The translations under genes were made by a program, and so were the position numbers. DNA of 64,000 nt from Raja brachyura. Lineage: Eukaryota. The notes beneath the pieces are model-generated. The model saw nothing but the letters and a program-made list of their open reading frames with translations. It ran no database searches and was not told the origin of the DNA. The stretch covers positions 33,046,001 through 33,110,000 of the forward strand of contig OY740798.1 in NCBI GenBank assembly GCA_963514005.1, read 5' to 3'. Of this stretch, positions 51,799 to 52,580 are shown in pieces; within the stretch, counting starts at the first letter, position 1, and each line of letters begins with the position of its first letter.

Positions 51799-51987
51799 AA
51801 TAGACAATAGACAATAGACAATTGACAATAGGTGCATGAGTAGGCCATTTGGCCCTTCGAGCCAGCACCACCATTCAACGTGATCATGGCTGATCTTCAC
51901 CAATCCGTACCCCGCTCCTGCCTTCTCCCCATATCCCCTGACTCCGCTATTTTTAAGACCCCGATCTAGCTCTCTCTTGAAAGCATC
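51799..51987 (-). mobile_element. CR1 3' terminus with (TATTGTC)n tail, co-oriented with and downstream of the ETNPPL retrocopy
   Basis: DAFKRELDRGLKNSGVRGYGEKAG; close match to 21099-21271. Confidence 0.88.
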
Positions 51988-52241
51988 AATGTACATCATG
52001 TACATAACCTGAGGATAAATAAATCATCTTAATATATACTGCCTCAAATTGCTTGTAAACAAAGGTCTATTATTATTGTCTTTTTCCTCGACAAATATTC
52101 CATTCAATATTACGCAACTAATCAAGAGTTTGAACCATGATACACCATTTAGAACAAAACAAAATGTATTTATGGAAAACTGACGAGAATAGAGAATGTA
52201 CTTATGGAATCTAATGAAGAGGGAGATGCACAGGATAGACA

Positions 52242-52580
52242 TTACCCTGAATTGACAAAGTAGCAAACAGATAGTTGAGGCAGGAGGGTCTGACTGAGAT
52301 GCTTGGCATACTGTACCAGATTGTCATGTAGGAGTCGTGCGTTAATGTTCAGCAGTTTCATCTGTTTGATAGCAGCTTGCACCACAGTTGGATGGAAATG
52401 CCCCACATGAGCCATGTTGTTAATGCAGTCCAAATACTTCTTGTTAGTCTCATCATACATGTACTGACCCTGGGCATGGATTATCTTGAGTGGGTCCTTT
52501 GCAAAAAACACCTTGCATGATGGCCTGATCTGTTGTTTTGGGTCCAGTACATGCTTTGTTGGTCACCATGTGTCAGCTAT
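52242..52580 (-). pseudogene. etnppl: 5' retrocopy fragment of an ethanolamine-phosphate phospho-lyase (ETNPPL/AGXT2L1-like) gene
   Basis: Translates as [66 protein letters not shown] then stop. No intron at AHV|GH. The upstream part has an in-frame TGA and no intact ATG in that frame. Confidence 0.85.

What the first reader, a model, noticed from the sequence alone, without database searches (positions are those of the whole stretch)
51799..52580. ETNPPL retrocopy of a partly spliced transcript fused to a CR1 3' tail
Seen (minus strand): ETNPPL-like coding sequence continuous across IR|PSCKV and AHV|GH. Similarity stops at AAT TCA GG, followed at once by GTAATG (52245-52240), ~258 nt of AT-rich intron-like sequence, then a co-oriented CR1 3' end (51987-51799) with a (TATTGTC)n tail and no poly-A. 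Recalled, needs verifying: human ETNPPL introns 1-3 fall in codons G19, V59 and G112, which match these three points. Established: CR1 RT is thought to require its own 3' end, so retrocopies are scarce in CR1-dominated genomes. Inference: a transcript with introns 1-2 spliced and intron 3 retained was retrotransposed through an intronic CR1 tail, or by RT template switching. A short duplication (ATGTACAT twice) sits at the junction.
Basis: partly seen in the sequence, partly recalled or inferred. Interest (0 to 1): 0.75.

Follow-up and report, generated by a model that had tools for sequence, protein, structure and literature searches.

The report
Half-spliced gene copy carried by CR1
A probably dead copy of two joined exons and part of the next intron of the ETNPPL gene sits fused to the tail of a CR1 jumping element, likely because the element's copying enzyme jumped onto the gene's unfinished RNA, which would let an element thought to ignore host RNAs still duplicate pieces of host genes.

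Summary
The intron-bearing etnppl parent lies on another contig (C1). The window holds exons 2 and 3 joined exactly (the 1,563-nt intron 2 is gone), 245 nt of intron 3, 10 extra nt, then a 189-nt co-oriented CR1 3' end. There is no poly-A and no target-site duplication. Exon 1 is not demonstrably present, so only one spliced intron is shown. The parent has no CR1 at the fusion point, and its intronic CR1 ~750 nt further on is a different family (~71% identical), so the 'intronic tail' idea fails. Intron 3 does not resume behind the tail. The junction is shared with one relative, and probably two more. Copy, CR1 piece and species split have similar ages (4.6-7.2%). In this genome 4 of 30 U6 loci are fused to sense CR1 ends, one of the same family. 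Best reading (0.62): one CR1 insertion that switched onto, or was ligated to, partly spliced pre-mRNA. Rivals: a lost intronic CR1 allele (0.2) or two steps (0.13). No empty site was seen. The scan noted similar CR1 chimeras in other genomes.

The parts
52525..52755 (-). 5' flank, single-copy; probably target-site DNA. Last 4 nt (52528-52525) equal the parental intron 1 acceptor; faint exon-1-like blocks at 52613-52590 and 52547-52525 are unexplained
   Evidence: joined to exon 2 in contigs of all 4 relatives laid
52406..52524 (-). copy of etnppl exon 2 (119 nt; parent C1:113309538-113309656)
52246..52405 (-). copy of etnppl exon 3 (160 nt; parent C1:113311220-113311379), joined exactly to exon 2; intron 2 (1,563 nt) absent
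51998..52245 (-). copy of the first 245 nt of parental intron 3 (248 nt here), starting at the GT donor
51988..51997 (-). 10 extra junction nt: tandem repeat of the last 9 intron nt plus one T (one mismatch here; perfect with the letter read at 51997 in relatives C and E)
   Evidence: table 3
51799..51987 (-). 5'-truncated CR1 3' end: last 27 codons of ORF2, 3' UTR and 7-nt repeat tail (51831-51799)
51600..51798 (-). 3' flank made of pieces of a common dispersed repeat; no intron 3 sequence resumes, no target-site duplication

Best explanation
The element is exons 2-3 of etnppl, spliced together, plus 245 nt of intron 3, fused in sense to a CR1 3' end, and it was likely made in one CR1 insertion event in which reverse transcription began on CR1's own RNA and then passed onto a partly spliced etnppl pre-mRNA. 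SHOWN: the anatomy, the parent, the precise loss of intron 2, the absence of this CR1 from the parent, and U6-CR1 fusions in the same genome. INFERRED: (1) a CR1 particle nicked the site on C18 and primed at the repeat tail; (2) after 189 nt the enzyme switched to, or the CR1 RNA had been ligated to, a nuclear etnppl RNA ending or broken 245 nt into intron 3, copying the last 9 nt twice; (3) it copied exon 3 and exon 2 and stopped at the start of exon 2, and the end was joined through a 4-5 nt match; (4) the copy was fixed shortly before the sampled relatives split and has decayed since. Template switching and prior RNA ligation cannot be told apart from sequence.
For: RNA origin: exact loss of a 1,563-nt GT-AG intron. 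Nuclear template: intron 3 begins at its donor and stops mid-intron, with no canonical poly-A hexamer within 170 nt upstream and no A-tail. One unit: parent homology ends 10 nt from the CR1 5' end, and neither the rest of intron 3 nor exon 4 resumes anywhere in the 64-kb window. Same age: copy vs parent 5.3% (intron, 95% CI 2.9-9.0) and 7.2% (exons); CR1 piece vs its best other copy 5.4% (2.6-9.7); orthologous copies of this genome vs organism E 4.6% (3.2-6.5). The intron-CR1 junction is bridged by a contig in organism B (47 nt on the CR1 side) and, short of the tool's 31-nt bar, in C (30 nt) and E (24 nt). Capacity in this genome: 4 of 30 fetched U6 loci (L109, L111, L118, L119) are followed within 25 nt by a sense CR1 3' piece. 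The background is 0.24% per locus; P is about 9e-7, or 0.006 at ten times that background. L119 uses the same tail family. None of the four has a clear adjacent duplication, which matches this locus. Precedent: chimeras of U6 with stringent L2 and RTE LINEs (PMC4476161) and of mRNA with L1 lacking an intronic donor (PMC11838501).
Against: No target-site duplication brackets the unit and no empty site was seen, so single-event arrival is inferred, not shown. There is no microhomology between CR1 and intron at the switch point. Extra nucleotides are also common at ordinary 5' junctions of an L2-clade LINE inserted into DNA (PMC4245944), so the 10 nt do not discriminate. Organism D is not covered at the junction, and only B passes the 31-nt bar. 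The age intervals are wide. An L1-like machinery is also active here (6 of 30 U6 loci have an A-rich tract and a 13-18 nt duplication). No second mRNA-CR1 chimera was found in five family searches; two of them returned nothing at all, not even the gene, so they say little. The background rate uses an incomplete CR1 library that missed L109's family.
Confidence: 0.62

Rival explanations
1. 5' transduction from a lost allele: a young CR1 once sat in sense at position 245 of parental intron 3. The etnppl transcript ran into it, CR1 proteins primed at that tail and copied upstream through the half-spliced RNA, and the donor allele was later lost.
For: Explains sense orientation, a nuclear template and a mid-intron junction with extra nt without any switch. 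The parent has a 4-nt match to the tail repeat 1 nt after the junction, but 11.5% of intron positions do as well. An earlier unchecked scan note (e1-8038773) describes tail-in-parent retroposition in another cartilaginous fish.
Against: No CR1 at that site in this genome's parent, nor in organism B (record 21 runs on 773 nt unlike the window from 51998), and probably not in D (record 4). C and E could not be read. It needs a transient allele to leave a fixed copy and then vanish.
Confidence: 0.2
2. Two steps: an L1-type or tail-less retrocopy of the partly spliced RNA inserted first. A CR1 later inserted at or near its 3' end with a target-site deletion that removed the rest of the intron, the A-tail and any duplication.
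For: L1-type trans-mobilisation is active in this genome. CR1 pieces are dense: 51 fragments in 264 kb. Target-site truncation is a described outcome of LINE insertion (PMC4245944).
Against: It needs a second insertion plus a deletion that leaves no downstream trace, within the short interval between copy formation (~5.3%) and the split from organism E (~4.6%). No relative laid shows the copy without the tail (D uncovered).
Confidence: 0.13
3. DNA-level duplication, assembly artefact, or derivation through the old CR1 that today's parent carries in intron 3.
For: The parent does have a sense CR1 3' end in intron 3.
Against: Exact intron loss excludes a DNA copy. Junctions recur in contigs of other organisms. 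The parental CR1 is ~71% identical, lacks 9 nt present in the window tail and has another repeat.
Confidence: 0.03

Closest known systems
U6/LINE chimeric retrocopies, including U6-L2 in platypus, U6-L2 and U6-RTE in Anolis, and one unresolved U6-CR1 in turkey (Doucet et al. 2015, PMC4476161; passages read)
   Same: Cellular RNA fused in sense to a short 3' piece of a stringent LINE; short or missing target-site duplication; no poly-A.
   Different: The passenger here is a protein-coding pre-mRNA with one intron removed and one retained, not an snRNA. The driver is CR1 in a cartilaginous fish.
mRNA/LINE-1 chimeric insertions in human (Law and Burns, PMC11838501; passages read)
   Same: Spliced exons of a host gene fused 5' of a LINE, mostly in sense; 15 of 17 parent loci lack an intronic LINE-1.
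   Different: Those use L1, mostly carry first exons, often join at splice sites to near-full-length L1, and the examples described have a TSD and poly-A. Here the joint is mid-intron, the LINE piece is 189 nt, exon 1 is missing, and there is no TSD or poly-A.
Partially processed retrocopies (named in the review PMC5470649, passage read; the primary papers were not read)
   Same: Some introns removed, one retained.
   Different: Ends in a CR1 tail rather than poly-A, and covers only two internal exons.
SINEs that borrow a LINE 3' end, e.g. HE1/HER1 of sharks and rays (table of PMC3747384; SINEU origin by template switch, PMC4494074)
   Same: Same proposed birth step: a non-LINE RNA gains the tail that a stringent LINE needs.
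   Different: Single copy with no sign of further spread.

Membership tests
processed (retro)pseudogene | precise loss of at least one intron relative to an intron-bearing parent elsewhere | tested here: met
   intron 2, 1,563 nt, removed exactly; parent on C1, copy on C18
   exon 1 not found; 4-5 nt fit either exon 1 or intron 1; faint 65% resemblance upstream
processed (retro)pseudogene, L1 type | 3' poly-A tail | tested here: not met
   ends in the CR1 7-nt repeat
processed (retro)pseudogene, L1 type | target-site duplication of about 13-15 nt | tested here: not met
   none next to the junctions
processed (retro)pseudogene | decay without protein constraint | tested here: met
   12 non-synonymous and 6 synonymous codon changes vs parent; a close homolog (P0001) shares the parent residue at 10 of the 12; no start codon of its own, in-frame stops just upstream and right after exon 3; no stop or frameshift inside exons 2-3
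LINE chimeric retrocopy (U6/L1 type) | cellular RNA fused directly and in sense to a 5'-truncated LINE 3' end | tested here: met
   10 nt between intron copy and CR1
LINE chimeric retrocopy (U6/L1 type) | no such LINE at that place in the parent | tested here: met
   this genome and organism B; D probable; C and E not readable
LINE chimeric retrocopy (U6/L1 type) | both parts arrive in one insertion (one TSD, or empty site in an outgroup) | tested here: inconclusive
   no TSD and no empty site seen; matching ages and a shared junction in relatives
CR1-clade LINE | ORF2 with AP endonuclease and RT, related to bird CR1 | tested here: met
   longer copies of the family run into RT sequence; a related element in the window has Exo_endo_phos and RVT_1; the ORF2 end is mostly 42-52% identical to many bird RT proteins, and bird LINEs are mostly CR1 (PMC3136929). 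No tree was built.
CR1-clade LINE | 3' simple-repeat tail without poly-A | tested here: met
CR1-clade LINE | 3' stem-loop recognised by the RT | tested here: inconclusive
   a hairpin is predicted before the tail, but the fold is no better than shuffles (z -0.83)
LINE 5' transduction | donor LINE inside the parent transcript at the junction | tested here: not met
   a lost allele is not testable

The most novel reading that the evidence does not exclude
CR1, the textbook 'stringent' LINE, routinely captures nascent, half-spliced host pre-mRNAs by switching templates in the nucleus. CR1-tailed exon-intron fragments would then be a hidden class of gene duplicates in sharks, rays and other CR1-rich vertebrates, missed by poly-A/TSD-based retrocopy screens. 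Each would record the order of intron removal and would carry the tail needed to move again.
Probability: 0.3. Interest if true: 0.68.

Novelty: new variant of a known kind. Interest (0 to 1): 0.43.

Why it matters
The locus itself is a probably dead 0.7-kb fragment. Its value is mechanistic. Reviews treat CR1 as unable to copy host mRNAs because it needs its own 3' end (PMC5470649, PMC3136929), while a 2026 preprint infers from abundance alone that CR1 or Tx1 sustain retroduplication outside mammals. This is a sequence-level case of how CR1 could do that, backed by four U6-CR1 fusions in the same genome, where the one published U6-CR1 case I saw was unresolved. It makes the question testable genome-wide: count retrocopy ends that abut sense CR1 tails.

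Tried and rejected
Exon 1 in the copy: searched by DNA and protein against 200 kb around the parent, against 40 kb at the C11 paralog and genome-wide; no source for the 5' flank found. Origin from the paralog PHYKPL: rejected, ~62% protein identity. Parent's own intronic CR1 as donor: rejected. Intronic polyadenylation at the junction: no canonical hexamer upstream; the nearest lies 38 nt downstream. Target-site duplication: none. Other mRNA-CR1 chimeras: cyclophilin (30 matches; 7 inspected, intron-bearing or not CR1-tailed), EF-1a domain (4 of 4 inspected, none), RPS3A (1 intronless copy, A-tailed, no sense CR1), SUDS3 and GAPDH (no match at all, uninformative). Expression: no RNA holder listed, which says nothing either way. 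Rfam around the locus: one weak match below cut-off. Pfam on the ORF2 end alone: no informative family. Earlier scan notes by place, by sequence and by two longer word sets: nothing. Literature searches listed no paper on a CR1-pre-mRNA chimera in a cartilaginous fish; most subscription papers, including Suh 2015 and Ichiyanagi and Okada 2008, were seen only as citations.

Full report
WHAT IS THERE. On the minus strand, 52553-52248 translates to an ETNPPL-like peptide (Pfam Aminotran_3; human ETNPPL 6tor at E 2e-42). Its closest named homologs are from a stingray and sharks, so the genome is likely a skate or ray (inference). A DNA search of the own genome found the parent on contig C1. With a full-length homolog the parent's exons were mapped: exon 1 at 113305646-704, exon 2 at 113309538-656, exon 3 at 113311220-379, with GT-AG introns of 3,833, 1,563 and 1,304 nt. 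The window holds exon 2 (52524-52406) joined exactly to exon 3 (52405-52246), then the first 245 nt of intron 3 (52245-51998), 10 extra nt (51997-51988) and a LINE 3' end (51987-51799). The protein search found only the parent, the paralog on C11 and this copy.

Exon 1 is not shown to be in the copy. Homology stops 4-5 nt above exon 2. These letters equal the intron 1 acceptor (4 of 4; 4 of 300 shuffles score as well) or the end of exon 1 with one change. The 231 nt upstream match only themselves and not the paralog. Two faint exon-1-like blocks exist there: an in-frame 8-residue match to the parent's N-terminus (14 of 2,988 random frames as good; DNA 82 of 3,000) and an anchored block (13 of 300 shuffles). 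Both are about 65% identical against 93% for the rest, and the test was post hoc. I leave this unexplained and count only intron 2 as spliced.

THE TAIL IS CR1, AND NOT THE PARENT'S. The best 40 genome hits are 92-95% identical (5,201 first-look candidates). Of 29 fetched copies most extend upstream into the same LINE body, which encodes RT sequence. A related element in the window carries AP endonuclease and RT domains, and the ORF2 end matches many bird RT proteins, mostly at 42-52%. The window piece is the last 27 codons, the 3' UTR and a 7-nt repeat. The parent has no CR1 at intron position 245. It has a sense CR1 about 750 nt further on, but that one is ~71% identical, lacks 9 nt and has a different repeat.

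ONE EVENT OR TWO. Neither the rest of intron 3 nor exon 4 resumes anywhere in the window. No duplication brackets the unit and there is no microhomology at the switch point. Contigs of four other organisms were laid (4 of 21 listed runs). All four bridge the 5' flank to exon 2. The intron-CR1 joint is bridged in B with 47 nt on the CR1 side, in C with 30 and in E with 24 (below the tool's 31-nt bar); D is not covered there. The exon 2-3 joint is bridged in C and D with 30 nt on the short side. B's parental contig leaves the window sequence at 51998 and runs on 773 nt, so B's parent also lacks the young CR1; D probably does too. C and E read another letter at 51997, which makes the extra nt a perfect repeat of the last 9 intron nt plus one T. 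Divergences: copy vs parent 13 of 243 in the intron (5.3%, CI 2.9-9.0) and 20 of 279 in exons (7.2%); CR1 piece vs its best other copy 10 of 186 (5.4%); orthologous copies vs B 1.5%, D 2.8%, C 3.3%, E 4.6% (32 of 689). So the copy formed shortly before the split from E, and the tail was probably already attached. The intervals are wide and no empty site was seen.

CAN THIS CR1 DO IT? A U6 search listed 48 loci, of which the best 30 were fetched. Four are followed within 25 nt by a sense CR1 3' piece: L109, L111, L118 and L119 (L109 was recognised from its translation, as the library missed it). L119 has the same tail family as the window. Background from 264 kb is 0.24% per locus; P(4 or more of 30) is 9e-7, or 0.006 at tenfold background. 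None of the four has a clear adjacent duplication. A relaxed machinery is thus also at work. Five family searches found no second mRNA-CR1 chimera, two of them being uninformative.

MECHANISM. Most likely (0.62), CR1 primed on its own tail, copied 189 nt and passed onto a nuclear etnppl RNA with intron 2 removed and intron 3 present, repeating the last 9 nt, and stopped at the start of exon 2. RNA ligation before reverse transcription, shown for U6/L1 (PMC6789731, search listing and start of abstract only), would give the same product. Rivals: 5' transduction from a lost intronic allele (0.2), two insertions with a deletion (0.13), artefact or DNA copy (0.03). The copy looks dead: 12 non-synonymous and 6 synonymous codon changes, 10 of the 12 not shared with a close homolog, and stops on both sides, although exons 2-3 themselves are still open. 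Expression was not testable.

COMPARISON WITH PRINT. Passages found by term search were read in PMC5470649, PMC4245944, bioRxiv 10.64898/2026.06.26.734816 (29), PMC3747384, PMC4494074, PMC11838501, PMC4476161, PMC2104539, PMC13343379 and PMC3136929; none was read whole and no supplements were opened. Supplements of the retrocopy catalogues might list this copy. Chimeras of LINE 3' ends with cellular RNAs are known for L1, L2 and RTE, with one unresolved U6-CR1 in turkey; mRNA-L1 chimeras without an intronic donor are known in human; CR1-clade duplications peak at only 3-5 nt. Seven searches listed no CR1-pre-mRNA chimera in a cartilaginous fish. Earlier unchecked notes of this scan describe a ZFYVE1 exon-intron piece fused to a CR1-like element, a 7SK-CR1 chimera and SINE-tailed WEE2 copies in other genomes; they are leads, not support.

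VERDICT. A real, single-copy, probably dead chimera. It works like a U6/L1-type chimeric retrocopy; membership is met except for proof of single-event arrival. New variant of a known kind; interest 0.43.

Noticed in passing
L109, L111, L118, L119 (G000:C6:96289219, C21:30384843, C17:20977612, C16:43635295): U6 snRNA copies fused directly to sense CR1 3' ends of at least two CR1 families; clear U6-CR1 chimeras, where the paper I read had only one unresolved case.
   Followed up: partly
L101, L103, L104, L121: U6 copies followed by an L1-like ORF2 end (L101), Tx1-like ORF2 pieces (L103, L104) or an A-tailed 3' UTR-like sequence (L121); clade labels rest on recalled motifs.
   Followed up: no
L106, L107, L108 (C2:69054323, C6:54330269, C22:20702012): A 3'-truncated U6 with near-identical flanks on both sides on three contigs: possibly a repeat family that carries or targets U6.
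   Followed up: no
L124 / G000:C5:8539255-8539869: Intronless RPS3A copy with an open frame of 290 codons, a poly-A signal and an A-tract, inside a GC-rich tandem repeat; candidate retrogene. No duplication found.
   Followed up: partly
window 52613-52590 and 52547-52525 (minus): Faint in-frame resemblance to the parent's exon 1 (about 65% DNA) in an otherwise single-copy flank; unexplained.
   Followed up: yes
L044, L056, L041/L055: Other CR1 copies begin, or resume after an internal deletion, at the same nucleotide as the window piece; possible breakpoint hotspot or search bias.
   Followed up: no
window 60807-63698 (+): Long CR1 ORF2 with endonuclease and RT domains in two frames and an 8-nt repeat tail; a related family, about 77% identical to the window tail's family.
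   Followed up: partly
G000:C39:23376644-23400074 (L071, L073, L074): Three tandem cyclophilin genes sharing a very short intron.
   Followed up: no
window 51798-51600: The 3' flank and the L119 site both lie in a very common inverted-repeat element whose core resembles a hammerhead motif of Penelope-like elements (recalled; Rfam gave no hit).
   Followed up: no
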